DNA of 64,000 nucleotides from Thermoanaerobaculia bacterium (GCA_036376245.1 DASVAS010000028.1:29339-93338); one strand, 5' to 3'. Numbered from the stretch's first letter, positions 1,303 through 64,000 are shown. A program made the numbers and translations. Notes: generated from the letters alone by a model not told the origin.

Positions 1303-1321
1303 GCCTCGCGGGAGCTTTGTT

Positions 1322-3169: not shown

Positions 3170-3199
3170 CCGAGCCCTCTTGCGTTGAGGTACCTTTTC

Positions 3200-3238
3200 G
3201 GGGCGGCCGTCCACGGACGGCCGCCCCGGTTCTTTTGT
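3200..3238 (+). terminator. Rho-independent terminator.
   Basis: A 13-bp GC stem (GGGGCGGCCGTCC / GGACGGCCGCCCC) with an ACG loop, followed by GGTTCTTTTGT, lies directly downstream of the 3169 stop. Confidence 0.6.
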
Positions 3239-3291
3239 GGGGCTCCCCCTGACTGGACGGACCGCGGCCCCGCTCCGTATACTGGGTCGCT

Positions 3292-19649: not shown

Positions 19650-19712
19650 AACCCTATTCGCGAAATCTGATAAGTTACGCGCCAGAAACCTCCGTTCGAG
19701 GGAGTCACTGGC

Positions 19713-22856: not shown

Positions 22857-22871
22857 GAGGAGCCTGAAGGG

Positions 22872-26018: not shown

Positions 26019-26031
26019 GAGTCATCGAAAA

Positions 26032-29000: not shown

Positions 29001-29193
29001 CTGCGCCCGGGCCATCGCCCCGTTCGAGCCGCACTCCCCCTGGGAGGAGAGCTTCCTGCGCTACCGCCACGAGTGCTACCGCAAGCTGCGGCACCCGCTG
29101 GAGGCCAGGGCGCGGCGCGACCTGGAAGACTTCCTGGAGCACACTCCCCCCAGGCTCGCGGAGGGCCTGGAGCCGGCGCGGCCCTCTTCTTGA
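26032..29193 (+). CDS. Fused MFS/spermidine-synthase-like protein, paralog 3 of 3 (1053 aa), which has the most divergent C-terminal domain.
   Basis: It starts 13 nt after paralog 2. The N-terminal and aminopropyltransferase-like core are conserved (IFSEPSNPYRAGVASLYSQDFY). The C-terminal 300 aa have diverged. Confidence 0.8.
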   Translation: MRSAVARVALLLFVSGFCALVYQTAWLRLFRLVFGASTAASAAVLAIFMAGLGFGGLLLGKRADRHRSPLGLYAALEAGIAISAGLSPWLVKLVEWVYISLGGSAALGLAGSTVVRLLLSTLVLGVPTFLMGGTLPAVARAVERGTDAGRRTVGLLYAVNTLGAVLGVGLTSFFALEMLGIRKTVWIAALLNLLVVLAARSLARSLAAERSAEEAAEEAVEEGERSRIGWLVPLAAGIVGFAFLLMELVWYRMLAPLLGGSSYTFGLILAVALLGIGVGGLLYGAGEARRRPTMLSFAATCSLEALFMIVPFALGDRLAVAAALLRPIGGAGFPALVGVWTLITALVVLPAAIVAGYQFPLLIGLLGQGRRQVGREVGVTYAANTLGAILGSIAGGFGLLPLLTAPGVWRLVAILLLGLAAVAVLAGLRAGAPRRAVLVPAAAGVLGLLLCFATGPSAFWRHSPIGAGRVETAKWTGPNDIHDQVSQMRQRVTWEAEGVESSVALDLTMEYSLIVNGKSDGTATADAPTQVLSGLIGSMVHPNPRRILVIGLGTGSTAGWLAQVPSVERVDVVELEPAIAHVGRVLAKVNLDVMSNPKVHFYAGDGRELLLAKGDSYDLIFSEPSNPYRAGVASLYSQDFYRAALRRLRPGGLFLQWLQGYETDFQVVRTVYATLGSVFPAVESWQTHRVDLMLMASREPVAHDVSLVRKRAAMEPYRTALSRIWGVAGAEGFYSAYVARPSFARAVADAEGSAVNTDDRPILEFGYAKNLGRFNMFQPADLHALAKSRRENRPATRGEPLDWARVEEARVARAAWWGESLEAADPQGDPDARHRISARQAFVDDRLPQACAAWFRQPEPPRFHVDKMLVSLCLAAAGHPRAPEYAALLAGEQPIEADLVLAQWHAAAGRPAAAGEHLLKAFEGFRRDPWIFRPLVQRVLPATVTLARRDPALGERLLRSLDQPFAVRMFDRQRLITRIWLTQGLSAPELCARAIAPFEPHSPWEESFLRYRHECYRKLRHPLEARARRDLEDFLEHTPPRLAEGLEPARPSS

Positions 29194-49530: not shown

Positions 49531-50550
49531 ATGGAAGACGATCTGCAATCCCTGGGCGAGGCCACGCTCGAAAAGGTCCGGCGGGACGTCCAGGTCTTCG
49601 GCTGGCATCTGCTGCTGGTCACCGGGGGTGTGGGCGAGCCGGCCTTCCTCTTCACCATCGGTCTGTGGGAGAGCTTCCGGCATCCGGAGATCATCCTGTT
49701 CGTCCCCTCCAACGATCCCCAGGACATGGCGGGGAACCTCCAGGCCGTGGTGAACAGGATCCAGCAGGGGGAGAGCTTCCAGAACGGACAGGACAAAGAG
49801 GGGCTCTTCGGCCACTTCCCGGGAGCGTTCCGGCCGGTCGCCAAGCTCTGGTACCCCCTCTTTCTCGGGACGGCCATGGCCTATTACGGCGGCGACGGCT
49901 TCCCTGCGCTGCAGCTTTTCTGGCCGGACCCGGAGAGCCGCTTCCCCTGGGAAGAAGGCTTCGCTTCGGGGCTCATGCCGTTCCAGCCTCTGCTCCACCA
50001 GACCGTCCTGAACCTCGCCAACCTGCCGGACCGGCTGGTGGAGGAGCTGGAGGACTCCGGGAGCGTCCAGAACGTCACCTTCGTCGCCGAGGACCTCTTC
50101 CTCGACCTGGATCAGGAGACGCAGGAGAGCTTCCTGGACGAGTGGCGATGGCTGGTGGGGCCGGGCGCCGAGGTCTTCCTGGTGACGGTCTTCGGAGACG
50201 TCTTCTTCAAGACCCCCGACGGCCGGGTCTGTTGGCTGGACACCGGCTGGGCCAGCTACGTGGAAGTCGCCGACAGCGAGGACGAATGGGTGGACCAGGT
50301 CGAGGAGCGCGGCCACGAGTGGTTCCACGCCAAGATCCGTCTCGACCTCCTGCTGCGGGACAACCACCTGGAGGAAGGCCAGGCCTACGGCTGGCTCCAG
50401 CCGCCGATGCTGGGAGGGGAGGAGACGGCGGAGAACATCGAGCGGGTGGACGCAGCCGAGTACATCGCCAAGCTGGGGAAGCTCGGCAGGACGATCCAGC
50501 AGCTCACTCCGGAGCCGGGGGACGACGAGGTCGGCTCCGACGTCTTCTAA
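49531..50550 (+). CDS. DUF4262-domain protein fused to a C-terminal Tdi1/DUF1851-like domain. This architecture is often seen in immunity-type proteins of polymorphic toxin systems.
   Basis: N-terminus VFGWHLLLVTGGVGEPAFLFTIGLWESFRHPEIILF ... LFWPDPESRFPWEEGF matches DUF4262 from memory. The C-terminus YGWLQPPMLGGEETAENIERVDAAEYI resembles the Tdi1 C-terminal domain. Recalled from memory and not searched. Confidence 0.45.
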   Translation: MEDDLQSLGEATLEKVRRDVQVFGWHLLLVTGGVGEPAFLFTIGLWESFRHPEIILFVPSNDPQDMAGNLQAVVNRIQQGESFQNGQDKEGLFGHFPGAFRPVAKLWYPLFLGTAMAYYGGDGFPALQLFWPDPESRFPWEEGFASGLMPFQPLLHQTVLNLANLPDRLVEELEDSGSVQNVTFVAEDLFLDLDQETQESFLDEWRWLVGPGAEVFLVTVFGDVFFKTPDGRVCWLDTGWASYVEVADSEDEWVDQVEERGHEWFHAKIRLDLLLRDNHLEEGQAYGWLQPPMLGGEETAENIERVDAAEYIAKLGKLGRTIQQLTPEPGDDEVGSDVF

Positions 50551-52020: not shown

Positions 52021-52448
52021 TGGACATCATCTGCCTCGACGACTCCGGCTGCCTTTTCCTCTCGCCCAAGATCACCGACTGGCGGTACCTGGACGAGCAC
52101 GGGATCACGGTGGTGATCGACCTCGAAGGGGAGATCGACCACGGCATCCCGACGATGCCCAACCACGTCCTCTACATCTACTACCCCATCTACGACGAGG
52201 ACCTCCCGGACCTCCCCAAGCTCCTCTCCGTGGCGCGGCTCGGCGCCTCCCTGGTGGAGAGCGGCCATCGGGTGCTCTCCCATTGCGGCATGGGGTTCAA
52301 CCGCTCGGCCCTGGTGGCGGGGCTGATCCTCATGCACCTCGGCATGAGCGGGGAAGAGGTGGTGGCGCACCTGCGCGGCAAGCGGCCGGGGGCCCTCTTC
52401 AACGAGCGGTTCGCCGAATACCTCCTCAGCCATCCAGGCTTCCGATGA
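52020..52448 (+). CDS. Dual-specificity protein phosphatase (Cys-based protein tyrosine phosphatase).
   Basis: Catalytic P-loop VLSHCGMGFNRSA (HCxxGxxRS) in a roughly 140-aa protein. Confidence 0.7.
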   Translation: MDIICLDDSGCLFLSPKITDWRYLDEHGITVVIDLEGEIDHGIPTMPNHVLYIYYPIYDEDLPDLPKLLSVARLGASLVESGHRVLSHCGMGFNRSALVAGLILMHLGMSGEEVVAHLRGKRPGALFNERFAEYLLSHPGFR

Positions 52449-53227
52449 GCCGGGACCCAAGCTGGTGGTTCGCCTTCCGGGGGAGCGAGCTTCTCGTCCG
52501 GGTGGAAGGCCCCGGCGCCCGCCTGCTCACCGGCGCCGAATGGACGGCTTTCGGTCTCGCCGGGGACGAGGTCCACGCCCTGGGCGACTGGGAGGACGCC
52601 GTCTATTACGCCGTCGGGCTGGCGGAGGGGACGGAGCCGCCCGAGGGCACGGCCTTCCACGGCCTGCGGCGCCTCTGGGGGATGCTGGACGAGGAGGCGT
52701 GGAAGCTCGCCGGCCGGGCCGTACAGATCGTGGAATGGGACCGCAACCACCGCTTCTGCGGCCGCTGCGGCGCGGCGACGGAGCGCAACCCAGGGGAGCT
52801 CGCCCGCGTCTGCCCCCGCTGCGGCCTCCAGCAGTTCCCGCGCATCTCGCCGGCGGTGATCGTCCGCGTCGAGCATGGGGACCGCATCCTCCTGGCCCGC
52901 TCGCCGCACTTCGCGCCCGGGGTCTACAGCACCCTGGCGGGGTTCGTCGAGCCGGGGGAGTCCCTGGAGGACACCGTGATCCGGGAGGTGCGGGAGGAGT
53001 CGGGCGTCACCGTGACCAACGTCCGCTACTTCGGCAGCCAGCCCTGGCCCTTTCCCCACTCGCTGATGATCGGCTTCGTGGCCGACTATGAGTCCGGCGA
53101 GGTCCGCGCCCAGGAAGGCGAGATCGAGGACGTCCGCTGGTTCGGGGTGGACGACCTGCCCGGGCTCCCTTCCCGCTTCAGCATCGCCCGCGCGCTGATC
53201 GACGAATTCATCGCGGCGCGGAAGTAG
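52445..53227 (+). CDS. nudC: NAD+ diphosphatase (NudC-type NUDIX hydrolase with a zinc ribbon).
   Basis: Zinc ribbon FCGRCGAATERNPGELARVCPRCG. Nudix box GFVEPGESLEDTVIREVREESGV. Typical NudC SQPWPFP motif. Confidence 0.8.
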   Translation: MSRDPSWWFAFRGSELLVRVEGPGARLLTGAEWTAFGLAGDEVHALGDWEDAVYYAVGLAEGTEPPEGTAFHGLRRLWGMLDEEAWKLAGRAVQIVEWDRNHRFCGRCGAATERNPGELARVCPRCGLQQFPRISPAVIVRVEHGDRILLARSPHFAPGVYSTLAGFVEPGESLEDTVIREVREESGVTVTNVRYFGSQPWPFPHSLMIGFVADYESGEVRAQEGEIEDVRWFGVDDLPGLPSRFSIARALIDEFIAARK

Positions 53228-53894
53228 CGATGTAGAGGATGTGGGCGTGGGGGTAGCCCGCGCCGACCTCCACGGCCTCGACGCCGCTGAAGCCCGCCTG
53301 GAGGAGGCGCTCGCGGACGCGGGCCCGCGGCTCGTAGCTGAACGCCTCTCCCAGGGTCAGGCCGATGCGGTCGGAAACCATCTCCTGCGCCCGGTTCCAG
53401 AACGCCTTCAGCCGGTGCTCCGGGTCGAGATCCTTGACCATCAGGACGCCCCCCGGCGCCAGCCTCTCCCGCGCCCAGCGGAAGAAGGGGTCCCATTCGT
53501 CCAGCGGAAACCGGTAGAGCACGTCGAACAGGGTCACGGCGTCGAACGTTCCGCGGACGCCGGAATGGAAGCTCCCCACGACCTTGAGGCCCGGGCGGCG
53601 GGGGATCAGGAAGATCTTGCGCAGATCCGGCTCCACGCCCACCACCTCCCGGGCTCCCGCTCGGAGGGCAAGATGTGCGAAGATTCCATGACCAGCTCCG
53701 ACATCCAGGATTCGCGACGCCGGCGGGAGATGTTTCAGCACCCGCAGGAACGGACAGGTAAGAAGACGTCCCAGGACGTGCAGCCGGGTCGGCGGGGGAG
53801 CCGACCCGTAAAGGCCGCGCACCAGGGACAGAGCCTGGAAGGGGCTGAGAGGGTTCACGGCGACTGCATATCCGCTGCTCGATGGAAGTGTCAA
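53208..53894 (-). CDS. Class I SAM-dependent methyltransferase.
   Basis: Motif I ILDVGAGHGIFAHL, then the acidic loop VVGVEPD and the post-I/II pattern. It converges on and overlaps nudC by 20 nt. Confidence 0.7.
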   Translation of the reverse strand: MTLPSSSGYAVAVNPLSPFQALSLVRGLYGSAPPPTRLHVLGRLLTCPFLRVLKHLPPASRILDVGAGHGIFAHLALRAGAREVVGVEPDLRKIFLIPRRPGLKVVGSFHSGVRGTFDAVTLFDVLYRFPLDEWDPFFRWARERLAPGGVLMVKDLDPEHRLKAFWNRAQEMVSDRIGLTLGEAFSYEPRARVRERLLQAGFSGVEAVEVGAGYPHAHILYIATSAPR

Positions 53895-55690
53895 CCTTTT
53901 CGCGCTCCGCCGCCTGGCGGCCTTCCGCCTGTGCTCTGACCGGCCTTGCCCTGGTGGCCGCCGTCCGGGCGTTCACGCTGCCCCGCAGCCTGTGGGAGCT
54001 GGACGAGATCCTCTTCTCCCGCGGGGTGGAGATGTTCGACCCCGTCTCCCACCGGCCGCATCCGCCGGGCTATCCGCTCCTCGTCGCGCTCGGCAAGCTG
54101 TTCGCGCTCGTCTTCCGGGACCCCTTCCCCAGCCTGGTGGCCCTGAGCTTCGTCTCGTGCCTGATCGGCTACTGGGCCCTGGTCGCGGCCTTCCGGCGGA
54201 TCGGCGGCGACGACCGGGTGGCCGTGGCCGCGGCGCTGCTCTTCCATCTCTCCCCCGTGATGCTGGTCCAGGGGCCGCTTCCGATGTCGGACCCCCCGGC
54301 CCTGATGTTCGTCGCCCTGGCGCTGGCCGCGGCGGCGGGCCTCGCGGGCCCGGACGGCGGCGGCTCCGTCTGGACGGCCGTGGCCCTGGGGGCCTTCGCC
54401 TCGGCGGCGGTGGGATGCCGGCCGCAGCTCGCCCTGGTGGTCCTGCCCATGCTGGCGGTGGCGCTCTGGCAGATCCCGGGCTGGCGGCGGCGCTTCGTGG
54501 CCGTGGGCGCCTTCGCCGTCGTCTCCCTCGGCTGGTTCGTGCCCCTGGTCATGGCCACGGGAGGATGGGACGGCTTCGTGGCCTATCAGATGAAGCAGGC
54601 CGGGTCCGTGGCCAAGAACGACATGAACGCTTCCCGGGCGGGGCTCTCCTGGGTCCGGCTGGCGTCGCGGTTCATCGCTCACCCCTGGGGGCCGCACTGG
54701 CTGGCCCTGCCGGTGCTGGCGCTGGCGGCGGCGGGGGCCGTCGATCTCGTCCGTCGCCGGCGGACCCTGGCCCTGCCCCTGGCGGTCATGGCGGCGGCCC
54801 AGATCGCCGTCTGCCTGCTGGTCATGGACCCCGGGGACGGTCCTCGCTACGCCCTGCCGGCGGTGCTGGCGGCGGCCTTCGCGGCGGCGGCGGGAGGCGC
54901 GGTCCTGGCGCGGCTGGCCCGAAGGCCGGCGGTGATCTGGGCGATCGTCGGGATCGTCTTCGCCGCCGGAGCGGTCTACGCCCGGCCGGTGCTGGCCGTC
55001 CGCTCCTCGGAGATATCGCCGGCCCTCCAGGCGGTCCGCTGGGCGGAGCGCCACCTGCCGCGCGATACCGTCATCCTGGTCGGGGACGAGATGGCGCCCT
55101 ATGGCACCTTCCTGCTGCGGGACTACGACGTCGCCTTCGTCGAGGACGGCCTGCGCCGGACGGCCCGGCGGCCGCGAACGCCCGTGTACCTGCTGGCGGA
55201 AGGGGAGAGCGGGTGGAAGGGGGCGGTGACCTTCCGCTGGCCGGACGGCGACGCCTACCGCCGCCTCACCCGCAACCACTACCGGGTGGTCTCCTGGAGC
55301 CCCATCCCGCCGGACCGGCGGTTCCAGGCCGTGCGGGGCGTCCACGGCTGGGAGCCCAGCTTCCGGGACGCCCGGTGGCGGTGGCTGGAGCCCGAGGCCG
55401 CCGTCCTTCTCTATCCCCGTGGCGCCGGGGCCGCGGGCGTCACGCTGAGCCTCGACTCCGCGGCGCCCATCCCCGAAAACACCGTGGCGGTCTCCATCAA
55501 CGGCGCGCCCGCCGGAACGGTGGAGATTCACCGCGGAGACACCCGGACCGTAGAGCTGGCCCTGCCCGCCGGCCCCGCCGAGATCGCCTTCCGCTCGGCG
55601 CGGTCGTTCGTCCCCGCCGAGGCCGGGATCGGGACGGACACCCGCCGCCTGTCCGTGCAGCTTGTTTCCGTGGAGCGGCTCGTCCGCTGA
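53882..55690 (+). CDS. GT-C-fold polytopic glycosyltransferase of the ArnT/PMT/FlmK type, with a C-terminal soluble domain.
   Basis: First-loop motifs WELDEILFSRGVEMF (DE-type catalytic loop) and HRPHPPGYPLL resemble the DEx...KPPL loop of ArnT/PMT-type transferases. About ten transmembrane helices and a roughly 200-aa C-terminal domain. Confidence 0.55.
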   Translation: MEVSTFSRSAAWRPSACALTGLALVAAVRAFTLPRSLWELDEILFSRGVEMFDPVSHRPHPPGYPLLVALGKLFALVFRDPFPSLVALSFVSCLIGYWALVAAFRRIGGDDRVAVAAALLFHLSPVMLVQGPLPMSDPPALMFVALALAAAAGLAGPDGGGSVWTAVALGAFASAAVGCRPQLALVVLPMLAVALWQIPGWRRRFVAVGAFAVVSLGWFVPLVMATGGWDGFVAYQMKQAGSVAKNDMNASRAGLSWVRLASRFIAHPWGPHWLALPVLALAAAGAVDLVRRRRTLALPLAVMAAAQIAVCLLVMDPGDGPRYALPAVLAAAFAAAAGGAVLARLARRPAVIWAIVGIVFAAGAVYARPVLAVRSSEISPALQAVRWAERHLPRDTVILVGDEMAPYGTFLLRDYDVAFVEDGLRRTARRPRTPVYLLAEGESGWKGAVTFRWPDGDAYRRLTRNHYRVVSWSPIPPDRRFQAVRGVHGWEPSFRDARWRWLEPEAAVLLYPRGAGAAGVTLSLDSAAPIPENTVAVSINGAPAGTVEIHRGDTRTVELALPAGPAEIAFRSARSFVPAEAGIGTDTRRLSVQLVSVERLVR

Positions 55691-55705
55691 ACCGAGGTCA
55701 TCGCC

Positions 55706-56479
55706 ATGTCCAGCCAACCCACCGTCTCGCTCGTGATCCCGATGTTCAACGAGGAGGAGAACATCGAACATGCCGTGGCCTGCGCCGTCGAGGCTCTGGA
55801 GCGCCACAGCGGCGGCTATGAGGTCGTGATCGTGGACGACGCCTCGACGGACCGTTCCGCCGAGATCGTCTCCCGGCTCGCCGCGGAGAACCCGGCCATC
55901 CGGCTGCTGCGGCACGAGGTGAACCGGAAGCTGGGCGCGACGCTGAAGACGGGCTTCGCCGCCGTCCGCATGGACATGGTGCTCTACATGGACGCCGACC
56001 TGCCGTTCGATCCCGAGGCCGTCGGCCGCGCCCTCCAGGCCATGCGGGTGACGCGGGCGGACGTCATCGCCGGCTACCGGCTGGACCGCACCACCGAGGG
56101 GTTCCGGCGGACGGTCTACTCCTACCTCTACAACTCCCTGATCGGGGTCCTCTTCGGCTGGCCCCACCGCGACATCAACTTCTCCTTCAAGCTGATGCGG
56201 CGGGAGGTCCTGGAGGCGATGGAGCTGCGCTCCGAGGGCTCGCTGATCGACGCCGAGATGATCGTCAAGGCCAGGAACCTGGGCTTCGTCATCCAGCAGC
56301 TCGGCCTCGACTACTTTCCCCGCACCCGCGGGAGCTCGACGCTGTCGTCGCCGTCCGTGATCCTCAAGATCCTGCGCGAGCTGGTGACCCTCTACCCGGA
56401 GATGAAGCATCCCAGGCGCCGGCAGAGCCCGCCGCGGGGTGAGACCGTGCCCGTCGAAGCCACGAGCCCGGGCCGTTGA
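55706..56479 (+). CDS. GT2-family polyprenyl-phosphate sugar transferase (ArnC/FlmF2/DPM1-like).
   Basis: VSLVIPMFNEEENI, VVIVDDASTDRS and MDADLPFDP (DxD) motifs. Confidence 0.85.
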   Translation: MSSQPTVSLVIPMFNEEENIEHAVACAVEALERHSGGYEVVIVDDASTDRSAEIVSRLAAENPAIRLLRHEVNRKLGATLKTGFAAVRMDMVLYMDADLPFDPEAVGRALQAMRVTRADVIAGYRLDRTTEGFRRTVYSYLYNSLIGVLFGWPHRDINFSFKLMRREVLEAMELRSEGSLIDAEMIVKARNLGFVIQQLGLDYFPRTRGSSTLSSPSVILKILRELVTLYPEMKHPRRRQSPPRGETVPVEATSPGR

Positions 56480-57327
56480 GAGCGCTGGTCGTCACCGCCG
56501 ACGACGCCGGGCTCCATCCCGGCATGACCCTCGGCGTCGTCAAGGCCCACGACGAGGGGATCGTCACCGCCTGCAGCGTCGTGACCGCCGGCCGCGCCTT
56601 CGAGCACGCCGTGCCGCTGCTGCGGGAGCGGCCGGAACTGGACGTCGGAATCCACTTCACACTGGTGGGCGAGCGGCCGCTGTCGCCGCCGGAGCGGGTG
56701 CGGTCCCTCCTGGGCCGGGACGGCGCCTTCCTGCCGGACTTCCGGGCCTTCACCCTGCGCTACCTGGCGGGCGGGATCGACCCGGCTGAAATCGAGGCGG
56801 AGCTGCGGCGCCAGTTGGAGCGCCTCCTCGCGGCGGGCCTCCCGGTCGTCCACGCCAACAGCCACCAGCACCTGCACGTCCTGCCAGGCGTCTTCGAGGC
56901 CGTGCTGCGATTGGCGGAGGAGAACGCCATCCCCTACGTGCGCATCCCCGGCGATCCCGCCGCCGTCCGCCGTCCCTCGCCGCGGTCGGCGCAGATCGCG
57001 GTGCTGGGCCTTCTCGGACAGAGGGCGCGCTGGCGCCTGGAGGAGCGCGGCACGTCACGGGCCGCGGACCGCGCCGTGGGCGTCCTCGACGCCGGGAGGC
57101 TGACCTCCGCACGTCTGATCCACATCCTGGCGGACGTCGACGGCGTCACCGAGCTGGTCTGCCATCCCGGGCAGGGGGACGCGGAGCTCGCGAGGGACTA
57201 CGACTGGGGCTACGGCTGGGACGAGGAGACGGCGGCGCTCCGTGATCCCGCCGTGGCGGAAGCCTTGCGGTCGGAGGAGATCCGGCTCACCTCGTTCTCG
57301 CGCCTGCGGAGCGTCCTGATCTCGTAG
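56476..57327 (+). CDS. YdjC/ChbG/HpnK-family carbohydrate deacetylase.
   Basis: N-terminal MRALVVTADDAGLHPGMTLGVVKAHDEGIVTACSVV and the metal-ligand region GIHFTLV ... HQHLHVLP are typical of the YdjC superfamily. ATG overlaps the GT2 stop. Confidence 0.75.
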   Translation: MRALVVTADDAGLHPGMTLGVVKAHDEGIVTACSVVTAGRAFEHAVPLLRERPELDVGIHFTLVGERPLSPPERVRSLLGRDGAFLPDFRAFTLRYLAGGIDPAEIEAELRRQLERLLAAGLPVVHANSHQHLHVLPGVFEAVLRLAEENAIPYVRIPGDPAAVRRPSPRSAQIAVLGLLGQRARWRLEERGTSRAADRAVGVLDAGRLTSARLIHILADVDGVTELVCHPGQGDAELARDYDWGYGWDEETAALRDPAVAEALRSEEIRLTSFSRLRSVLIS

Positions 57328-58823
57328 AGCGCGCCTCCGTTCTCGTCCGAGACCAGCCGGTAGTACCGCCGCAGGCGTTGATCCAGGCCCATCCCCCCGG
57401 GCATCTTCCAGACGTAGACCGTGTCGACCAGGCCCCGGTTGAACCGCGGGCGGTAGAGGTTCGGCGCGAACGCGATCCCGGGAGTGTCGGGAAAGACCAC
57501 CGACTCGCGGAAGCGGACGGGGAAGAACGGCACCTTGGCCTCGTAGTTCTCCCAGTCGATCAGTCCCTTCTCGATGGCCGCGTACCCCGCCGCGTGGGAC
57601 TGGATGTGCATGTGGGCCGCGCGGGAGTCGAGCCGGAAGTTGAGGGTGAGCAGCCGCGTGTTGGGCCGTGCCGCCGCGAGCCCATTCACATAGTCCCGCA
57701 TCTCGCGCCCCAGCAGGCCGTACCAGTGGACCAGATAGCCGAGGTACAGCAGCGCCGTGACGGTGAGCACGGCGGCGCCGATCCGCTCCCCGGACCGCCC
57801 CAGCCGCGGCGAGAGCCACGCGAACAGGAGGAGGTAAGGGTAGAGGCTGAGCCGCTGCTTCATCAGGTAGCCGCCGGACATCCCCTCCGGGCTGAGGAAG
57901 AAGAGCACGGTGAAGAGGACCGCCAGGAGCAGGAAGACGTCCGTCTCCCGCGACATCGGCCGGCCGCTTACGAAGCTCTCGCGCCGGACGGTGAGGATCA
58001 TCAGCAGGAGGAAGACCGCGGCCACCGCCGTCCCGAGCCAGACCTGGACGGGGCTGAAGGAGAGGAACACTTCGAGCCGGGTGAAGTACAGCAGGAGCTG
58101 CCGGAACCCCCAGTCCCTTTCGATCACGTCGCTGCCCTGGACCGAGAAGAACCAGAGAGGGAGGATCACCTGCGGCGCCAGGATCGGGATGTGGAGCAGA
58201 TGCCGGCGCCAGACTTCCTTCCGCAGCGTCGCGAGCCAGCACACGGAGATGGCGATCAGCGCCAGGCCGAACGAGAGGATGTGCGAGAACCAGCACAGCC
58301 AGAGCAGGAGGTTGATCCCCACCGCGAAGCCCGGCGTGGGCGTGTGCCGGCGTCTCCACCAGAAGCCCAGGATGATCGGGAACAGCGCCACGCTGAGCGA
58401 GAAGTTGTAGAAGCCGTACTGGAAGAGCTGCTGATAAGCGAACGGAAAAGCCAGGAAGGCGATCCATCGCTGATCGCTCCGCACCGCCCCGCAGAAGTAC
58501 CAGATCCCGCCCAGGAACGTCAGCACGTAGAGGCTCGCCATCAGCTTTTCCGCCGCGAGCGGCGGGACCACGAACATCAGCAGCGCCGTCACCGCGTGGC
58601 CGGTCCAGTTCGGATAGGGCCGCGCGTTGATCTCGTAATGCTCCTGGAAGAGCGGGTACTCCTCGACGTTGTGGTACTGCCGCAGGATCCAGGCGTTGTA
58701 GGTGTGGCAGGCGCCGTCGATCGTGGGCAGATAGCGGACGGTCCAGAGCGGGAGGACGTACAGCAGGGCGAGCGCGAAGAAGAGACGGCGCAGCCGCCTC
58801 TCATCCCGGAGGAGATCGTTCAA
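57210..58823 (-). CDS. Polytopic membrane protein, paralog A of 3 (537 aa). It is a putative glycosyl/lipid transferase partner of the adjacent GT2/GT-C genes.
   Basis: Eleven or so transmembrane helices. A conserved first-loop block PTIDGACHTYNAWILRQ. A roughly 140-aa soluble C-terminal domain. The 3' end overlaps the convergent ydjC-like gene by 118 nt. Confidence 0.6.
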   Translation of the reverse strand: MNDLLRDERRLRRLFFALALLYVLPLWTVRYLPTIDGACHTYNAWILRQYHNVEEYPLFQEHYEINARPYPNWTGHAVTALLMFVVPPLAAEKLMASLYVLTFLGGIWYFCGAVRSDQRWIAFLAFPFAYQQLFQYGFYNFSLSVALFPIILGFWWRRRHTPTPGFAVGINLLLWLCWFSHILSFGLALIAISVCWLATLRKEVWRRHLLHIPILAPQVILPLWFFSVQGSDVIERDWGFRQLLLYFTRLEVFLSFSPVQVWLGTAVAAVFLLLMILTVRRESFVSGRPMSRETDVFLLLAVLFTVLFFLSPEGMSGGYLMKQRLSLYPYLLLFAWLSPRLGRSGERIGAAVLTVTALLYLGYLVHWYGLLGREMRDYVNGLAAARPNTRLLTLNFRLDSRAAHMHIQSHAAGYAAIEKGLIDWENYEAKVPFFPVRFRESVVFPDTPGIAFAPNLYRPRFNRGLVDTVYVWKMPGGMGLDQRLRRYYRLVSDENGGALYEIRTLRRRENEVSRISSDRKASATAGSRSAAVSSSQP

Positions 58824-60352
58824 CGGCGGGCCTCTTGCCGCACCCGAAGCCGGTTTTCCCAGAGCACGCCGCCGTTTTTATCAGAAATCTTCACAAAATA
58901 CTTTTGAAGACGTCTCTCCAGCGGAGCGCCGGGAGGCAGACCCCAGGTGTACACGTAGTCCGCGCGTCTCTTCCAGGGTTGCAGGTACAACTCGGCCGGC
59001 TCGGCTTCGATGTGCCAGATCGAGGGCCGCGCCTCGGGACGGAACCGGGTCGGGAAAAACTCCGCCGCGGCTTCGTAGTTGTCCCAATCCACCAGTCCCT
59101 TCTCGAGGGCCGCGTAGCTGGTGACGTGACCGAAGAGGAGGAGCCTGGAGGTGGGGCCGCGGTGCTCGAACAGCAGCGGCAGGACCCGGGTGTCGGGCTG
59201 GACGAGCTCGAGACCGGCCAGGAACCCCCCGATCTCGCCGTCGAGCCGGTCGTACCACCGGATTTGATACCCCAGGTTGAGCGCGGCCAACGACGCGAGG
59301 ACCGCGACCCCCGCCGTCTGAGCGGTCCGGCCCAGCCGGGGGGAAAGCCACGGGATCAGCAGCAGCCAGGGATAGAGGCTCAGACGGTTCTTGAGGAACG
59401 ATCCCCCCGCCAGATCGTTCGGAATGGCGAAGTAGAGAAGGAGGACCACAGCCGTGAGGAGGAGGAAGGCGTCCCGGTCCTGGAACGACCGCCGCCGGAT
59501 GTTCTCGCGCCAGAGGGTGAGCGACAGGAGAAGGCCGAACACGACCGCCAGACCGCGGGCGTACGGTTGCTGGTTCTCGCTGAAGGTGATCAGCACCTCC
59601 AGGTAGCGGAGGTAGTCCAGGGCGACGTCGAAAGACCAATTGGGAGGCCACGCCGTCGGCCCCCGGTCCGAGAAGTACCAGATCGGCAGGAGGATCTGCG
59701 GCGCCAGCAGAAGGATGTGCCGCGGGTGCCGCCGCCAGTCGTCGCGCCGCAGCGTCGCCAGCCAGAGGACGGCGATGGAGATGATCGCCACCACGAACGA
59801 GACGACGTGAGAGAACCAGCAGAGCCACAGGAGCAGGTTGATCTTCAGCGCGAAGGCGAGGCTCGGGTCGGCGCGGTTGCGCCACCACAGCCCGAGGATC
59901 CAGGGGAACAGCGCCAGGCTGATCGAGAAGTTGTAGAACCCGAACTGGAACAGGTGGTTGTAGGGGAACGGAAACGCCAGGAACGCGAGCCATCGCTGCT
60001 CCCGCCAGACGGAGCCCACGAGGTACCAGACGCCGAAGAGGAACGTCAGGACGTACCCGCTCACCAGGATCTTCTCCGCGATCAGGGGCGGCACGGCGTG
60101 CATCAACAGCGCCATGGCGCCATGGCTCACCCAGTTGGGGTAAGGCCTGGCATTGATCTCGAAATACCGCTGGAACAGAGGGAAGTCTTCGGTGTTGCCG
60201 TACTGGCGCAGGATCCAGGCGTTGTAGGTATGACACGGTCCGTCGACCGTGGGGATGTACTCCACGATCCAGAAAGGCAGGATGTAGAGGAAGGCCAGGA
60301 GGAAGAAGATCCGTCGGACCCACATCTCCCCTGGCGTGCCGAAGCTCGTCAT
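58820..60352 (-). CDS. Polytopic membrane protein, paralog B of 3 (510 aa).
   Basis: Same architecture (PTVDGPCHTYNAWILRQYGNTEDFPLFQRYFEINARPYPNW). Its stop overlaps the paralog A start by 4 nt. Confidence 0.6.
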   Translation of the reverse strand: MTSFGTPGEMWVRRIFFLLAFLYILPFWIVEYIPTVDGPCHTYNAWILRQYGNTEDFPLFQRYFEINARPYPNWVSHGAMALLMHAVPPLIAEKILVSGYVLTFLFGVWYLVGSVWREQRWLAFLAFPFPYNHLFQFGFYNFSISLALFPWILGLWWRNRADPSLAFALKINLLLWLCWFSHVVSFVVAIISIAVLWLATLRRDDWRRHPRHILLLAPQILLPIWYFSDRGPTAWPPNWSFDVALDYLRYLEVLITFSENQQPYARGLAVVFGLLLSLTLWRENIRRRSFQDRDAFLLLTAVVLLLYFAIPNDLAGGSFLKNRLSLYPWLLLIPWLSPRLGRTAQTAGVAVLASLAALNLGYQIRWYDRLDGEIGGFLAGLELVQPDTRVLPLLFEHRGPTSRLLLFGHVTSYAALEKGLVDWDNYEAAAEFFPTRFRPEARPSIWHIEAEPAELYLQPWKRRADYVYTWGLPPGAPLERRLQKYFVKISDKNGGVLWENRLRVRQEARR

Positions 60353-60445
60353 TCCTGCCTTGAGCTCCCTGTTGCCGGTCTCTACGGACCGGCGGGCGTC
60401 AGCGTTTAAGGCGTGGAATGAATGCGAGATCCGTGCCGGAAATCT

Positions 60446-62029
60446 TCAGGGCTGAAGCGGGGACCGCGCCTCCCAGAGCACGCCGCCGTCCTGGTCGGAG
60501 ATCCGCGCGAAGTGTCTTCCGAGGCTCTGCGCCAGGGGATCGCCGAAAGGCATCCTCCAGGTGTAGACGTAATCAACGCGGCCCTGCCAACTCGCGACCA
60601 GGGTCTCCGGGTCGGCTCCGATCCTCTGGACCGGGGGCGGCGGCGTGGAGGCCCGGAACCGGGTCGGAAAGAAGTCCACCGCCGCCTCGTAGTTGTCCCA
60701 GTTCACCAGCCCCTTTTCGAGAGCGGCGTAGTCGGCGGCGTGAGTGTAGATGGGGAACTGGGAGCTGCGGCCGTTGTGCTCGAACAGCAGCGGCACGAAA
60801 CGGCTGTTCGGCCGGACGCTCTCCAGACCGGCCAGGAATCGGGCCATCTCGCCGTCGAGCCTGTGATACCACCGGATCTGGTAGCTCAGGTTCAGCGCGG
60901 CCAGCAGAACGAGGACCGCGAGCCCCGCCGCCTGGGCCCTCCGCCCCAGCCGTGGAGAGAGCCAGGGGATCAGCAGCAGCCAGGGGAACAGGCTCAGCCG
61001 CATCTTGAGCATCGTTCCTCCGCCGACCGCGTTCGGACTGAGGAAGTACACCACGATCAACAGCAGGCCGAGGAGGAAGAAGGCATCCTCTTCCCGTAGC
61101 CGCCGGTCGCGGTAGACCCCGCGCCAGAGGGTCAGCAGGACGAGCACGGCGAAGAGGACCGCCATGGTCCGCGCAAACCAGAGGTGATCCGGGCTGAAGG
61201 AGAGCAGCACGCCCATGTTCAGGAAATAGCCCAGGGCCATCTCGAAGGGCCACCGGGAAGCCCGCGTCGCCGCCCCCTGGGCCGAGAAGTACCAGAGCGG
61301 CAGGATCACCTGGGGCAGGAGGATCGGGACGTGCCGCAGGTGCCGCCGCCAGGTCTCGCGCCGGATCGTCGCCAGCCATAGAACCCCGATGGCGAGGAGC
61401 GACAGCGCGAACGGGACGATGTGGGAGAGCCAGCACAGCCAGAGGAGCAGGTTGATCTTCACCGCGAAGCCGGGGGTCGGGCTCGCGCGGCGCCGCCACC
61501 AGAGTCCCAGGATCCAGGGGAGCAGCGCCACGCCCAGCGAGAAGTTGTAGAACCCGAACTGCGACGTGAGGTTGTAGGGAAAGGCGAAGGCCAGGAAGCT
61601 CAGCCAGCCCTGGTCAGGCCGCACGGAGCGCGCCAGATAGCGGAGGCCGAAGAGCAGGAGCAGCACATAGCCGCTCAGCAGGATCTTCTCCGCCACCAGC
61701 GGCGGCACGGCGAACATCAGCAGCGCCATGACCCCGTGTCCCAGCCAGTTCGGATAGGGCTTGGCGTTGATCTCGAGGTACCGCTGGAACAGCGGGAAAT
61801 CCTCCGCGTTCCCATGCTGCCTCAGGATCCAGGCATTGTAGGTATGGCACGGACCGTCGACCGTGGGGATGTAGTCAACGATCCAGAAGGGGAGAACGTA
61901 GAAAAGAGCCAGGAAGACGAAGATCCACCGGCTCCAGGCCATCCTCGGCATACCGGGGCCGCTCGGTTCTTCCGTCGGGCGCACCATGGGCGGCATTCTA
62001 TGGGCTGTTCGACCCCGCGTGGACGCCAT
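60446..62029 (-). CDS. Polytopic membrane protein, paralog C of 3. The listed ORF start is probably too far upstream.
   Basis: The same conserved blocks are present (PTVDGPCHTYNAWILRQHGNAEDFPLFQRYLEINAKPYPNW). By alignment with paralogs A and B, the true start is likely the internal Met of MPRMAWSRWIF, near 61951. Confidence 0.6.
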   Translation of the reverse strand: MASTRGRTAHRMPPMVRPTEEPSGPGMPRMAWSRWIFVFLALFYVLPFWIVDYIPTVDGPCHTYNAWILRQHGNAEDFPLFQRYLEINAKPYPNWLGHGVMALLMFAVPPLVAEKILLSGYVLLLLFGLRYLARSVRPDQGWLSFLAFAFPYNLTSQFGFYNFSLGVALLPWILGLWWRRRASPTPGFAVKINLLLWLCWLSHIVPFALSLLAIGVLWLATIRRETWRRHLRHVPILLPQVILPLWYFSAQGAATRASRWPFEMALGYFLNMGVLLSFSPDHLWFARTMAVLFAVLVLLTLWRGVYRDRRLREEDAFFLLGLLLIVVYFLSPNAVGGGTMLKMRLSLFPWLLLIPWLSPRLGRRAQAAGLAVLVLLAALNLSYQIRWYHRLDGEMARFLAGLESVRPNSRFVPLLFEHNGRSSQFPIYTHAADYAALEKGLVNWDNYEAAVDFFPTRFRASTPPPPVQRIGADPETLVASWQGRVDYVYTWRMPFGDPLAQSLGRHFARISDQDGGVLWEARSPLQP

Positions 62030-62059
62030 CCGTCACGAGGGGCGTGCGGCTCGACCTCC

Positions 62060-62245
62060 GGGGCGAGGGCCCTGCCCCGTTGGGTCGGCCACCCGCCTCC
62101 CGGAGCACGTGACTCGCCCCGCGACGTGGGAGTCTCGCGCCATGGTGCAAGCGGCTCGCCCCGCAAGGTCAGGAGTGCGGCTCGCGGGGCGAGGGGCTCG
62201 CCCCCCGGAGCCAGGTGACCGACCGCGGGGCGAGAAGCTTGCCCC
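62060..62245. repeat. Cluster of GGGGCGAG / CTCGCCCC inverted repeats in a divergent intergenic region.
   Basis: GGGGCGAG occurs at about 62060, 62186 and 62227. CTCGCCCC occurs at about 62113, 62155 and 62197. Several pairs form 8-10 bp palindromes, for example CTCGCCCCGC..GCGGGGCGAG. Confidence 0.5.
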
Positions 62246-62275
62246 GTGATGCCAGGACCTCACGATACGGGGCGG

Positions 62276-64000
62276 ATGGCTCGCGTCACCTCCCGCGTCC
62301 CCCACGTTGCAACCCGCGGCTCCCCCGCCCGTATACGGCTCCAAACGGCAAGACGCCGGACGAGGTCAGCCTTGAGACGAATCCTTCCGTTGCCCTTCCT
62401 GCTCCTGCTCCTCGCTTCCCTCTCCGTCGAGGCCGGCGACTGGCCGCGTTTCCAGGGGGAGAAGCAGGATGGGATTTCTCCCGAGAGCGGCCTGCCCCGG
62501 AGCTGGCCCGCGGAGGGGCCGCGGGTGGTGTGGAAGCGGGCGATCGGCGAAGGCTATTCGACCTTCAGCGTCGCCGCCGGACGGCTCTATACCATGGACT
62601 CGGACGCGAAGACCGAGTACGTGCTCGCCCTGGACGCGGCCACCGGCAACGAGATCTGGCGCGTCCCGATCGGCGACAAGCTCGTGGACCCGATGGGCAA
62701 CGGCCCGCGCGGCACCCCGACGGTCGACGGCGGCACGATTTACGCCCTGGGCTCCCTGGGCCGGCTCCTCGCCTTGAAGGCGGCGGACGGCGCGAAGCTC
62801 TGGGAGGTGGAGCTCACCCAGGCCTTCGGCGCCAAGCGGCCCACCTGGGGATACTCGGGCTCGCCGCTCGTGGACGGCGACCTGCTGATCCTCGAAGTGG
62901 GCGGGACCGAGAAGCGAGCAATCGTGGCGTTCGAGAAGGCGACCGGCAAGGTCCGCTGGGCTTCCCAGGAGGGGGACGCGGCGTACAGCACCCCGGTCCT
63001 GATGACCATCGGCGGCGTCCGGCAGTACGTCACCGCCCGCCGCGCCGGACCGGAGGTCGTCTCGCTCCTCCCGGACGGCACGCTTCACTGGAAGCATCCC
63101 GGACCGCCCACGGTCATCGTGAGCCCGCTCTTCATCCCGCCGGACAAGGTCTACGTCTCGGCCGGGGACGACGGCGGCGCGGTCCTCTTCCGGGTGAGGA
63201 CCGAGGGCGGCAGGGCCACGACCGAGGAGATCTGGAAGACCCGCGGGATGAAGAACCACTTCAACAGCGCGGTCCGTGTTGGCGACCACGTCTACGGCTT
63301 CGACAACGCCACCTTCAAGTGCATCTCCCTGGCGACCGGCGAGCCGGCCTGGGCCATGCGCGGCCTGGGCAAGGGCTCGCTCCTCGCCACGGCGGACGGC
63401 CTCCTCGTCGTGCTGTCTGACCGCGGCAAGCTCCTGCTCGTCGAGGCGACTCCCGAGAGCTACAAGGAGCTCGCGAGCTTCCAGGCCCTGGAAGGAAAGG
63501 CCTGGACCTCTCCCGTGCTCGCCAACGGCAAGGTCTATCTGCGGGACGAGGACGAAATGATCGCCCTCGACCTCGGGGTTCCCGGGGTTCCGGCGGCCGG
63601 CCGGGACGCAGAAACTGTCTCCGCACGGGCCGAGAAGAGTTCCGCCTCGGCAAACAATGAGGCCGGATCGGCCGATGACATCGTTGCCAGGCACGTGGCC
63701 GCACACGGCGGCGCGGCGCGGTGGAAGGCGGTCCGGTCGCTGGAGGTCTCCGGGACGTACACGAGCTTCAGCGAAGCCCACCCGTTCAACTTGAAGCGCC
63801 AGCGGCCGGGCCGCTACCGCTTCGAGACCCGCACGATGCGAGCGCCGGTCACCGTGGCCCACGACGGCACGTCCGCCTGGTGGATCTTCCCGCCCTACGG
63901 CGTCGACCAGGCGGCGAAGCCGCCCGAGCCCGACGCCGTCCTGATCGCCCGGGAGGCGGAGATCGAGCCGGTCTTCGTGGCCTGGAAGGAGAAGGGCCAC
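62276..64000 (+). CDS. PQQ-like beta-propeller repeat protein (BamB/PQQ enzyme-repeat family), secreted. The 3' end lies beyond the window, which is why it is absent from the ORF track.
   Basis: Frame 2 is open from 62276 to the window end. A signal peptide (LPLPFLLLLLASLSVEA) follows an in-frame TTG at 62372. Repeated blade motifs (RVVWKRAIGEGYSTFSVAAGRLYTMD; LALDAATGNEIWRV; TVDGGTIYALGSLGRLLALKAADGAKLWEV). The minus-strand ORF 62366..64000 has no features and is taken as a shadow. Confidence 0.6.
   Translation, partial: MARVTSRVPHVATRGSPARIRLQTARRRTRSALRRILPLPFLLLLLASLSVEAGDWPRFQGEKQDGISPESGLPRSWPAEGPRVVWKRAIGEGYSTFSVAAGRLYTMDSDAKTEYVLALDAATGNEIWRVPIGDKLVDPMGNGPRGTPTVDGGTIYALGSLGRLLALKAADGAKLWEVELTQAFGAKRPTWGYSGSPLVDGDLLILEVGGTEKRAIVAFEKATGKVRWASQEGDAAYSTPVLMTIGGVRQYVTARRAGPEVVSLLPDGTLHWKHPGPPTVIVSPLFIPPDKVYVSAGDDGGAVLFRVRTEGGRATTEEIWKTRGMKNHFNSAVRVGDHVYGFDNATFKCISLATGEPAWAMRGLGKGSLLATADGLLVVLSDRGKLLLVEATPESYKELASFQALEGKAWTSPVLANGKVYLRDEDEMIALDLGVPGVPAAGRDAETVSARAEKSSASANNEAGSADDIVARHVAAHGGAARWKAVRSLEVSGTYTSFSEAHPFNLKRQRPGRYRFETRTMRAPVTVAHDGTSAWWIFPPYGVDQAAKPPEPDAVLIAREAEIEPVFVAWKEKGH

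What the first reader, a model, noticed from the sequence alone, without database searches (positions are those of the whole stretch)
53882..62029. Polyprenyl-phosphate aminosugar modification module (GT-C plus GT2 plus YdjC deacetylase) facing three tandem paralogous polytopic membrane proteins.
The trio of an ArnT/FlmK-like GT-C transferase, an ArnC/FlmF2-like GT2 polyprenyl-P sugar transferase and a YdjC/NaxD-like deacetylase matches two known pathways. In Francisella, FlmF2-NaxD-FlmK adds galactosamine to lipid A. In the Arn pathway, ArnD is a different deacetylase family.
- A hopanoid HpnI/HpnK-like pair is an alternative reading.
- Convergent to the trio, and overlapping its last gene by 118 bp, are three tandem paralogs of about 520 aa with a conserved first-loop DG(P/A)CHTYNAWIL block. 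These could be additional transferases that use the lipid-linked aminosugar donor on different acceptors.
- This is the second tandem triplication of membrane proteins in the same window.
Basis: partly seen in the sequence, partly recalled or inferred. Interest (0 to 1): 0.7.

Follow-up and report, generated by a model that had tools for sequence, protein, structure and literature searches.

The report
Aminosugar-lipid operon beside three unnamed GT-C transferases
In an uncultured Thermoanaerobaculia (Acidobacteriota) genome, an operon that probably makes and uses a lipid-linked amino sugar lies tail-to-tail with three tandem copies of a large, unnamed family of membrane glycosyltransferase-fold proteins, but gene order in related genomes gives no support for the two units working together.

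Summary
All six ORFs are at the stated coordinates. The three ~510-537 aa paralogs are 51-61% identical pairwise and share the first-loop DG(P/A)CHTYNAWIL block. The 118-bp convergent overlap is real.

**Coupling not supported.**
- The commonest neighbour I tested for is argH (30 of 38 loci).
- The trio abuts the paralogs in 5 of 38 loci, besides the window.
- In at least two more species it lies ~10 kb away behind an ABC-exporter block.
- It is absent near the Poribacteria homologues.

Verdict: a new sequence family within a known fold, beside a new member of a known pathway type. Interest is moderate.

The parts
53208..53894 (-). SAM-dependent methyltransferase (Methyltransf_23), divergent from the trio. 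It is a conserved neighbour, but its membership in the pathway is uncertain.
   Evidence: Pfam PF13489, 55.8 bits. It is found next to the GT-C gene in all 7 related loci examined. A NUDIX gene is equally conserved there, so this may be plain synteny.
53882..55690 (+). GT-C-fold glycosyltransferase, 602 aa, of the PMT_2/GT39-like family. It has the first-loop motif LWELDE and a C-terminal beta-sandwich resembling carbohydrate-binding modules.
55706..56479 (+). GT2 of the polyprenyl-phosphate sugar synthase type (DPM1/ArnC/GtrB-like), 257 aa. It has no C-terminal TM helices. DD and DxD motifs are at D44-D45 and D96-D98.
   Evidence: PF00535, 106 bits. Best NCBIfam hit is ArnC, 73.9 bits, far below its cut-off. 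Best PDB relatives are DPMS 5mlz, ArnC 9hwj/9bhc/8vxh and GtrB 5ekp. It starts 15 nt after the GT-C stop.
56476..57327 (+). YdjC-family carbohydrate deacetylase, 283 aa. I saw no N-terminal signal peptide or TM segment by eye, so it is presumed cytoplasmic.
   Evidence: PF04794, 207.9 bits. NCBIfam HpnK 172.7 bits (cut-off 232.6) and ChbG 126 bits (cut-off 227). Its start overlaps the GT2 stop in TTGA.
57210..58823 (-). Paralog A, 537 aa, a member of an unnamed GT-C-fold family. It groups with the downstream copy of the ancient tandem pair. Its non-conserved C-terminal tail overlaps YdjC by 118 bp.
   Evidence: Alignment. All family-invariant residues are kept. NJ tree. Its start overlaps the paralog B stop in TTGA.
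58820..60352 (-). Paralog B, 510 aa, a member of the unnamed GT-C-fold family. This is the copy that was modelled.
60446..62029 (-). Paralog C, 527 aa, a member of the unnamed GT-C-fold family. It arose with B by a recent duplication shared with the closest relative, L007.
   Evidence: Alignment. NJ tree. L007 also has three copies.
57210..57327 (.). 118-bp overlap of the convergent 3' ends of YdjC and paralog A.
   Evidence: Coordinates. In relatives, a GIY-YIG gene, a GIY-YIG plus ABC-F pair, or a ~10-kb ABC-exporter block fills this position.

Best explanation
Two separate envelope-glycosylation units lie tail to tail.

**Unit 1 (53882-57327, + strand)**
- This is an operon of the Lgm / Flm-NaxD kind.
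- The membrane-peripheral GT2 transfers an N-acetylhexosamine from a nucleotide sugar to polyprenyl phosphate on the cytoplasmic face.
- The cytoplasmic YdjC enzyme removes the acetyl group, giving polyprenyl-P-hexosamine.
- After flipping by a flippase that is not encoded in the cluster, the 602-aa GT-C enzyme transfers the cationic amino sugar to a periplasmic acceptor.
- The enzyme's CBM-like C-terminal domain suggests that the acceptor is a glycan (LPS core/O-chain, or another envelope polysaccharide) rather than the lipid A phosphate.

**Unit 2 (62029-57210, - strand)**
- This is a three-gene operon of paralogous members of a large, unnamed GT-C-fold family.
- Each member has about 11 TM helices, a periplasmic first loop with invariant D-G-x-x-H, and a periplasmic C-terminal alpha/beta domain.
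- Each most likely transfers a sugar from a polyprenyl-phosphate-linked donor to an envelope acceptor.
- The copies have probably diverged in acceptor or linkage specificity, as in the mycobacterial embCAB genes.

**What is shown and what is inferred**
- Shown: the folds, domain families, motifs, operon junctions and synteny.
- Inferred by analogy: the chemistry, the sugar identity, the acceptors, and any sharing of donor between the two units.
For: **Trio**
- Junctions are tight: a 15-nt gap and a TTGA overlap.
- The same three genes in the same order occur in L004, L007, L019, L020, L027, L079 and L080.
[quoted passage not shown] **Paralogs**
- The model is confident.
- Two independent structure searches return GT-C enzymes as every strong hit, while transporters appear only at probability <=0.2.
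- D37, G38, H41, G138, H182, P218, P311 and R323 are invariant. E93-K94 is nearly invariant across members down to 25% identity.
- All of these residues are kept in all three window copies.
- Loop charges follow the positive-inside rule with loop 1 outside.
- A split homologue on an Azospirillum thermophilum plasmid lies ~1.9 kb from, and divergent to, an AglJ/dolichyl-P-hexose-type GT2, with one hypothetical gene between.
- Two of three distant members have a sugar-nucleotide epimerase gene adjacent.
- The tandem pair is old: the A-type and B/C-type clades each contain copies from many species.
Against: - There is no biochemical evidence for any step.
- No flippase candidate (GtrA/SMR-like small hydrophobic ORF) lies within 40-64 kb.
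- The GT2 and the YdjC protein fall below every NCBIfam equivalog cut-off, so sugar identity is open.
- Most neighbourhoods are uninformative.
Confidence: 0.6

Rival explanations
1. All six genes form one system, and the three paralogs take the polyprenyl-P-aminosugar made by the GT2 and YdjC enzymes and place it on different acceptors.
For: - The two units are adjacent, within 2.2 kb or less, in 5 of 38 related species-level loci, besides this window.
- They lie about 10 kb apart on the same contig in at least two more species.
- Matching contig lengths suggest that many contigs carry both.
- All four membrane proteins have a GT-C fold.
Against: - The two units are convergent, so they are not co-transcribed.
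- The spacing varies from an overlap to more than 10 kb, with unrelated genes in between (ABC exporter, GIY-YIG, ABC-F, toxin-antitoxin).
- argH, a functionally unrelated gene, is the far more constant neighbour (30 of 38 loci). This shows that regional synteny alone explains the linkage.
- At least 12 loci with 8.5-10 kb of downstream flank have no trio in range.
- The 33 Poribacteria loci and the distant members have no YdjC or similar GT2 nearby.
Confidence: 0.2
2. The GT2/YdjC pair is a hopanoid HpnI/HpnK pair that makes bacteriohopanetetrol glucosamine.
For: The best NCBIfam hit for the YdjC protein is the HpnK model, at 172.7 bits.
Against: - That score is below HpnK's cut-off of 232.6.
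- The GT2 scores 13.7 bits on HpnI (cut-off 310) and resembles DPMS, ArnC and GtrB instead.
- No squalene-hopene cyclase, HpnJ/HpnH radical-SAM or other hpn domain turned up among the ~44 window ORFs I scanned against Pfam.
- The constant operon partner is a GT-C enzyme, which to my knowledge has no part in the hopanoid pathway.
Confidence: 0.03
3. The trio is a protein O-glycosylation system. The 602-aa GT-C acts like a PMT/TMEM260-type enzyme, putting a sugar from a polyprenyl-P donor on Ser/Thr of secreted proteins.
For: - The only direct Pfam hits are TMEM260-like and PMT, both just under their cut-offs.
- JGI names some homologues 'dolichyl-phosphate-mannose-protein mannosyltransferase'.
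Against: - ArnT, ALG12 and AglB score almost the same as Pmt4, and ArnT has the highest identity at 15%.
- No PMT-type MIR domain was detected: no MIR Pfam hit, and the extra domain is a C-terminal CBM-like beta-sandwich.
- To my knowledge, a deacetylase partner is known from lipid A aminosugar pathways, not from PMT systems.
Confidence: 0.15
4. The paralogs are not glycosyltransferases. They would be either transporters or non-catalytic GT-C-fold scaffolds like PIG-U/GAB1.
For: - No sequence family assignment exists.
- One database member is fused to an ABC ATPase domain (P0223).
Against: - Transporters reach only Foldseek probability <=0.2 and TM <=0.15.
- Invariant D, H, E-K and R residues sit on the predicted periplasmic side, where GT-C active sites lie.
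- The P0223 fusion sits on a 4-kb metagenome contig and may be a gene-calling artefact.
Confidence: 0.07

Closest known systems
Bordetella LgmA-LgmB-LgmC and Francisella FlmF2-NaxD-FlmK (lipid A glucosamine / galactosamine modification)
   Same: The three-enzyme content is the same: an ArnC/DPM1-type GT2, a YdjC-family deacetylase and a GT-C transferase, encoded contiguously. lgmA-C are required for the GlcN modification (PMC4993483).
   Different: - The gene order differs.
- The GT2 lacks C-terminal TM helices.
- The GT-C is no closer to ArnT than to PMT or ALG enzymes, and it has an added CBM-like beta-sandwich domain.
- No NCBIfam equivalog threshold is met.
- The acceptor is unknown and may be a glycan or a protein rather than lipid A.
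- The host is an uncultured Acidobacteriota lineage.
ArnT (GT83) and the GT-C_A structural class (PMT, STT3/PglB/AglB, AftD)
   Same: - The membrane architecture matches: TM1, a long first outer loop with an invariant Asp, multiple TM helices, and a soluble C-terminal domain.
   Different: - There is no detectable sequence similarity: 6-13% identity in structural alignments, no PDB hit with the family profile, no Pfam hit for 36 diverse members, and hhalign probability 1.5% against the neighbouring PMT_2-like family.
- The motif is D-G-x-x-H rather than the DE/DxD-type motifs I recall for PMT and PglB.
Mycobacterial embC-embA-embB (tandem paralogous GT-C arabinosyltransferases)
   Same: Three adjacent paralogous GT-C genes occur in one orientation. 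From my own knowledge, the Emb paralogs use one lipid-linked donor on different acceptors.
   Different: - These proteins are about half the size and have no CBM domains.
- Copy number varies from 1 to 3 between related species.
Three-component periplasmic glycosylation systems (GtrA/GtrB/Gtr*; GT136 system of Citrobacter)
   Same: The logic is the same: a polyprenyl-P sugar synthase plus a GT-C enzyme that modifies a glycan in the periplasm (PMC11127046).
   Different: - No flippase gene lies in or near the cluster.
- There is an extra deacetylation step.
- The GT-C families are different.

Membership tests
GT-C glycosyltransferase superfamily (three paralogs) | Polytopic membrane protein with the GT-C fold | tested here: met
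   [not shown]
GT-C glycosyltransferase superfamily (three paralogs) | Conserved acidic residue in the first extracytoplasmic loop | tested here: met
   D37 is invariant in 36 members down to 25% identity. It lies a few residues after TM1. Loop 1 is net negative and the alternate loops are net positive. The side of the membrane is predicted, not measured.
GT-C glycosyltransferase superfamily (three paralogs) | Sequence membership in a described GT-C family (Pfam/NCBIfam) | tested here: not met
   No Pfam or NCBIfam hit for the three copies. No Pfam hit at E<=0.01 for 36 diverse members. No PDB sequence hit with the family profile. CAZy could not be searched.
GT-C glycosyltransferase superfamily (three paralogs) | Uses a polyprenyl-phosphate-linked sugar donor | not testable with these tools
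   Only circumstantial evidence exists: a Dol-P-hexose-type GT2 ~1.9 kb from the Azospirillum homologue.
ArnT/FlmK/LgmB-type lipid A aminosugar transferase (602-aa GT-C) | GT-C fold with a first-loop acidic motif | tested here: met
   [not shown]
ArnT/FlmK/LgmB-type lipid A aminosugar transferase (602-aa GT-C) | Specific sequence affiliation with ArnT (GT83) rather than other GT-C families | tested here: not met
   No NCBIfam hit. Pfam gives only sub-threshold TMEM260-like and PMT hits. Pmt4, ALG12 and AglB score as high as or higher than ArnT. There is an extra CBM-like domain.
ArnT/FlmK/LgmB-type lipid A aminosugar transferase (602-aa GT-C) | Acceptor is a lipid A phosphate | not testable with these tools
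   This needs lipid A mass spectrometry.
Polyprenyl-phosphate sugar synthase GT2 (ArnC/FlmF2/LgmA/DPM1/GtrB) | GT2 catalytic domain with DD and DxD motifs, closest to known polyprenyl-P GT2s | tested here: met
   PF00535, 106 bits. The top PDB relatives are DPMS, ArnC and GtrB. D44-D45 and D96-A-D98 are read from the sequence.
Polyprenyl-phosphate sugar synthase GT2 (ArnC/FlmF2/LgmA/DPM1/GtrB) | Equivalog-level match to a specific enzyme (ArnC, PpgS, and others) | tested here: not met
   ArnC 73.9 bits against a cut-off of 529. PpgS 38 bits against 370. The donor sugar is therefore unassigned.
NaxD/LgmC-type YdjC deacetylase | YdjC-family domain | tested here: met
   PF04794, 207.9 bits, covering profile positions 2-265 of 266.
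NaxD/LgmC-type YdjC deacetylase | Deacetylates a polyprenyl-P-HexNAc | not testable with these tools
   No NaxD-specific model was available. The inference rests on the operon partners.
Hopanoid HpnI/HpnK(/HpnJ) module | YdjC protein reaches the HpnK threshold | tested here: not met
   172.7 bits against a cut-off of 232.6.
Hopanoid HpnI/HpnK(/HpnJ) module | GT2 is HpnI | tested here: not met
   13.7 bits against a cut-off of 310, E = 0.02.
Hopanoid HpnI/HpnK(/HpnJ) module | hpnJ radical-SAM, shc or other hpn genes nearby | tested here: not met
   None among the ~44 GC3-supported window ORFs scanned against Pfam; a few smaller ORFs were not scanned.
Three-component (synthase / flippase / GT-C) glycosylation system | Dedicated small flippase gene (GtrA/SMR/MATE) in the cluster | tested here: not met
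   No hydrophobic ORF of 60-180 aa lies in 40-64 kb, and the intergenic gaps are at most 190 bp.

The most novel reading that the evidence does not exclude
The three paralogs would be founding members of a large, previously undescribed GT-C glycosyltransferase family. It has about 7,500 50%-identity clusters across Acidobacteriota, Poribacteria, Thermodesulfobacteriota and Alphaproteobacteria, and a D-G-x-x-H catalytic loop. It would build or decorate an as yet unknown envelope glycan. In Thermoanaerobaculia, it would draw on the cationic polyprenyl-P-hexosamine made by the neighbouring GT2/YdjC pair, so that one donor feeds four GT-C enzymes with distinct acceptors.
Probability: 0.15. Interest if true: 0.6.

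Novelty: new variant of a known kind. Interest (0 to 1): 0.42.

Why it matters
GT-C enzymes build and decorate lipid A, O-antigens, arabinogalactan, teichoic acids and glycoproteins. New GT-C families are still being defined experimentally; GT136 was founded in 2024 (PMC11127046).

This work identifies a family of thousands of sequences that current HMM libraries miss. It assigns the family a fold and a candidate active-site motif. It also shows that the family is maintained as an ancient tandem pair or triplet in a widespread but uncultured soil class.

The neighbouring trio extends the Lgm/NaxD-type aminosugar logic, so far known to me from pathogens, to Acidobacteriota. Here it comes with a CBM-bearing transferase, which hints at cationic decoration of a glycan rather than of lipid A. 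Cationic decoration of this kind affects resistance to cationic peptides and envelope charge.

None of this overturns current understanding. It supplies targets for Pfam/CAZy curation and for biochemical work.

Tried and rejected
- **Sequence-level links of the paralogs to known families.** Pfam and NCBIfam on the three copies found nothing. Pfam at E<=1 on 36 diverse members gave only scattered noise. The family profile against all PDB sequences found nothing. hhalign against the neighbouring PMT_2-like family gave probability 1.5%.
- **AFDB50 fold search.** It would have given annotated predicted relatives, but the library was not available.
- **Fusions as functional clues.** Of ten long members, one has a YfhO (GT-C) region and one an N-terminal ABC ATPase. 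The ~700-aa forms have no Pfam domain in their extension. This was too sparse to use.
- **Poribacteria neighbourhoods (33 loci).** The conserved neighbours are a Laminin_G_3 protein, hypotheticals, TenA, a histidine kinase, DHDPS, EPSP synthase and a GT4 several kb away. No donor-synthesis genes appear.
- **Distant members.** The P0260 context is unrelated. P0391 and P0393 have an epimerase gene adjacent. This is a weak carbohydrate link only.
- **Names of distant cluster members.** All are 'hypothetical'. One is from Thermodesulfobacteriota.
- **The NaxD paper (PMC3841722).** It is not held, so statements about NaxD and FlmK chemistry rest on its title as cited and on my own knowledge.
- **Hopanoid reading.** Rejected.
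- **Transporter reading.** Rejected.
- **Guess that the other triplication encodes RND pumps.** Rejected. They are MFS-like/spermidine-synthase fusions.

Full report
**1. Source and observation**

The window comes from a Thermoanaerobaculia (Acidobacteriota) metagenome-assembled genome. Paralog B is 100% identical to a protein NCBI lists as 'MAG TPA: hypothetical protein VF789_12395 [Thermoanaerobaculia bacterium]' on a 158-kb contig. All six ORFs of the finding exist at the stated coordinates. They show the high third-position GC of real genes in this ~70% GC sequence.

On the plus strand lie three genes:
- a 602-aa polytopic protein (53882-55690)
- a 257-aa GT2 (55706-56479)
- a 283-aa YdjC protein (56476-57327)

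The first gap is 15 nt. The GT2 stop and the YdjC start overlap in TTGA. This is a compact arrangement consistent with one operon.

On the minus strand lie three paralogs:
- C (60446-62029)
- B (58820-60352)
- A (57210-58823)

C and B are 94 nt apart, and the B stop overlaps the A start in TTGA. A is 51-53% identical to B and C, and B and C are about 60% identical. The DG(P/A)CHTYNAWIL block is present in all three, right after the first hydrophobic helix. The 118-bp overlap with YdjC is real. It falls in a 30-residue low-complexity tail that only paralog A has.

**2. The trio**

*GT2.* It matches PF00535 (106 bits). Its closest solved relatives are all enzymes that load a sugar onto a polyprenyl or dolichyl phosphate: Pyrococcus DPMS, three ArnC structures and GtrB. 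Its best NCBIfam hit is ArnC, far below the equivalog cut-off. HpnI is essentially a non-hit, at 13.7 bits against 310. At 257 aa it lacks the C-terminal TM helices of ArnC and GtrB. From my own knowledge, this resembles DPM1, Ppm1 and PpgS.

*YdjC.* The third protein is a full-length YdjC domain (208 bits). Its best specific models, HpnK and ChbG, are both sub-threshold.

*Conservation.* The trio occurs in the same order in L004, L007, L019, L020, L027, L079 and L080. It always has a divergent Methyltransf_23 gene, and where checked a NUDIX gene, upstream.

[quoted passage not shown] From my own knowledge it also equals Francisella flmF2-naxD-flmK; the NaxD paper is cited but could not be read.

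The GT2 is not HpnI and the YdjC protein is below the HpnK cut-off. No shc, hpnJ or hpnH domain appeared among the ~44 window ORFs scanned against Pfam.

*Flippase.* No flippase-like small membrane ORF is present.

**3. The paralogs**

*No named family.* Neither Pfam nor NCBIfam recognises the paralogs.

*Family size and range.* A profile search of 1.84 billion representatives finds 7,573 at E<=1e-3 and 1,695 at E<=1e-30. Members occur in these groups:
- Thermoanaerobaculia
- Candidatus Poribacteria, as ~705-aa forms
- a Thermodesulfobacteriota MAG
- an Azospirillum thermophilum plasmid

*Conserved residues.* Across 36 members down to 25% identity, the invariant residues are D37, G38, H41, G138, H182, P218, P311 and R323. 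N73, A92-E93-K94, F139 and W470 are nearly invariant. All are kept in A, B and C, so all three look functional.

*Topology.* Loop charges fit an N-in topology:
- Predicted cytoplasmic loops are net positive (IL3 +3.0, IL4 +1.4, IL5 +1.6).
- Loop 1 is net negative (-1.4).
- The short predicted outer loops carry G138 and H182.

The D-G-x-x-H motif is therefore predicted to be periplasmic, as GT-C catalysis requires. From memory, the set of Asp, Glu-Lys, His and Arg recalls the catalytic Asp and phosphate-binding Lys/Arg of ArnT. I could not superpose coordinates, so this remains a lead and not a result.

**4. Are the two units coupled?**

I fetched 75 loci from one-genome-per-species contigs. 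I mapped the window's proteins and marker genes onto them. Of the 38 Thermoanaerobaculia loci:
- argH lies directly upstream of the paralog block on the same strand in 30.
- The trio is adjacent and convergent, with a gap of 0-2.2 kb, in 5 (L004, L007, L019, L020, L027).
- In L001/L079 and L011/L080 the trio lies about 10 kb downstream. It sits behind a block of HlyD, ABC, OEP, ABC2, GIY-YIG and ABC-F genes, in one case plus a toxin-antitoxin pair.
- At least 12 loci with 8.5-10 kb of downstream flank show no trio.

The window's tail-to-tail overlap is thus the most compact state of a variable syntenic region. Its constant members (arg operon, NUDIX) are functionally unrelated.

Outside the class, the evidence is thin:
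- No YdjC or similar GT2 lies within 10 kb of the 33 poribacterial genes.
- Three distant members show either nothing relevant or only an adjacent sugar-nucleotide epimerase gene.
- One independent hint links the family to lipid-linked donors. A split Azospirillum homologue lies ~1.9 kb from, and divergent to, a GT2 that scores 204 bits on AglJ and 95 bits on dolichyl-phosphate hexose transferase, with one hypothetical gene between.

This supports 'uses a polyprenyl-P-sugar' in general. It does not support 'uses the YdjC product'.

**5. History of the copies**

Copy number is 1-3 in tandem across species. In an NJ tree without bootstrap, A groups with the downstream copies of other species, and B and C group with the upstream copies. 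The B/C split is shared only with the 91%-identical relative L007. The first duplication is therefore old and both lineages have been retained. That fits divergence of specificity, much as for embCAB.

**6. Verdict**

- The trio is a new member of the Lgm/NaxD kind of pathway. Its acceptor is uncertain and probably differs from lipid A.
- The paralogs are an undescribed sequence family within the GT-C fold.
- The proposed sharing of the aminosugar donor is not excluded, but it has no comparative support.

Interest is moderate. The result is useful for family curation and envelope biochemistry of uncultured Acidobacteriota, but it does not overturn anything known.

Noticed in passing
window 19674-29193 (+): Three tandem ~1060-aa paralogs, 72-81% identical to the first. 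The one copy scanned has an MFS-like polytopic N-terminal part fused to a spermidine/spermine synthase domain, with a long C-terminal region that has no Pfam hit. They are far more similar to each other than the GT-C paralogs are, so this triplication is recent.
   Followed up: partly
window 62036-62284: The intergenic region sits between paralog C and the divergent PQQ_2/BamB-like beta-propeller gene. It holds 4-6 imperfect copies of a GC-rich palindromic unit (CGGGGCGAG-N4-CTCGCCCCG) spaced about 41-42 nt apart. The core 12-mer is not enriched elsewhere in the window. It may be an operator array or a REP-like element upstream of the paralog operon.
   Followed up: partly
L004-L040 (Thermoanaerobaculia loci): The paralog block sits directly downstream of argH, at the end of the arginine biosynthesis operon, in 30 of 38 species-level loci. 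In this window and in L007 that link is broken by inserted genes, including the PQQ_2 beta-propeller gene.
   Followed up: yes
L081 (Azospirillum thermophilum plasmid NZ_CP029358.1) 6060-10600: A family member in a cultured bacterium is annotated as two adjacent hypothetical genes, so it is possibly frameshifted. It lies ~1.9 kb from, and divergent to, an AglJ/dolichyl-P-hexose-type GT2, with a 423-aa hypothetical protein between. This could be an experimental entry point.
   Followed up: partly
L042-L077 (Candidatus Poribacteria loci): Sponge-symbiont homologues are about 705 aa. Similar ~700-aa database members show no Pfam domain in their C-terminal extension. In about 20 of 33 loci a Laminin_G_3 (ConA-like lectin) protein follows them.
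   Followed up: partly
P0153 and P0223 (metagenome proteins): One family member is fused to a C-terminal YfhO-type GT-C region (1331 aa). Another is fused to an N-terminal ABC ATPase domain (858 aa). Both are on short contigs, so these may be gene-calling fusions.
   Followed up: no
window 49531-50550 (+): This protein combines DUF4262 with a C-terminal T6SS immunity Tdi1_C domain. The window also holds a secretin fragment at 3-740 and TIG/PKD/invasin-like surface proteins at 1157-4269.
   Followed up: no
window 53208-53894 (-) and 52283-53227 (+): A Methyltransf_23 gene is always found divergent from the GT-C gene in the 7 related loci. An NADH-pyrophosphatase-type NUDIX gene is found just beyond it where checked, and the DSPc phosphatase and Pyr_redox_2 genes lie further upstream in L079 and L080. 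Whether the methyltransferase modifies the aminosugar is unknown.
   Followed up: partly
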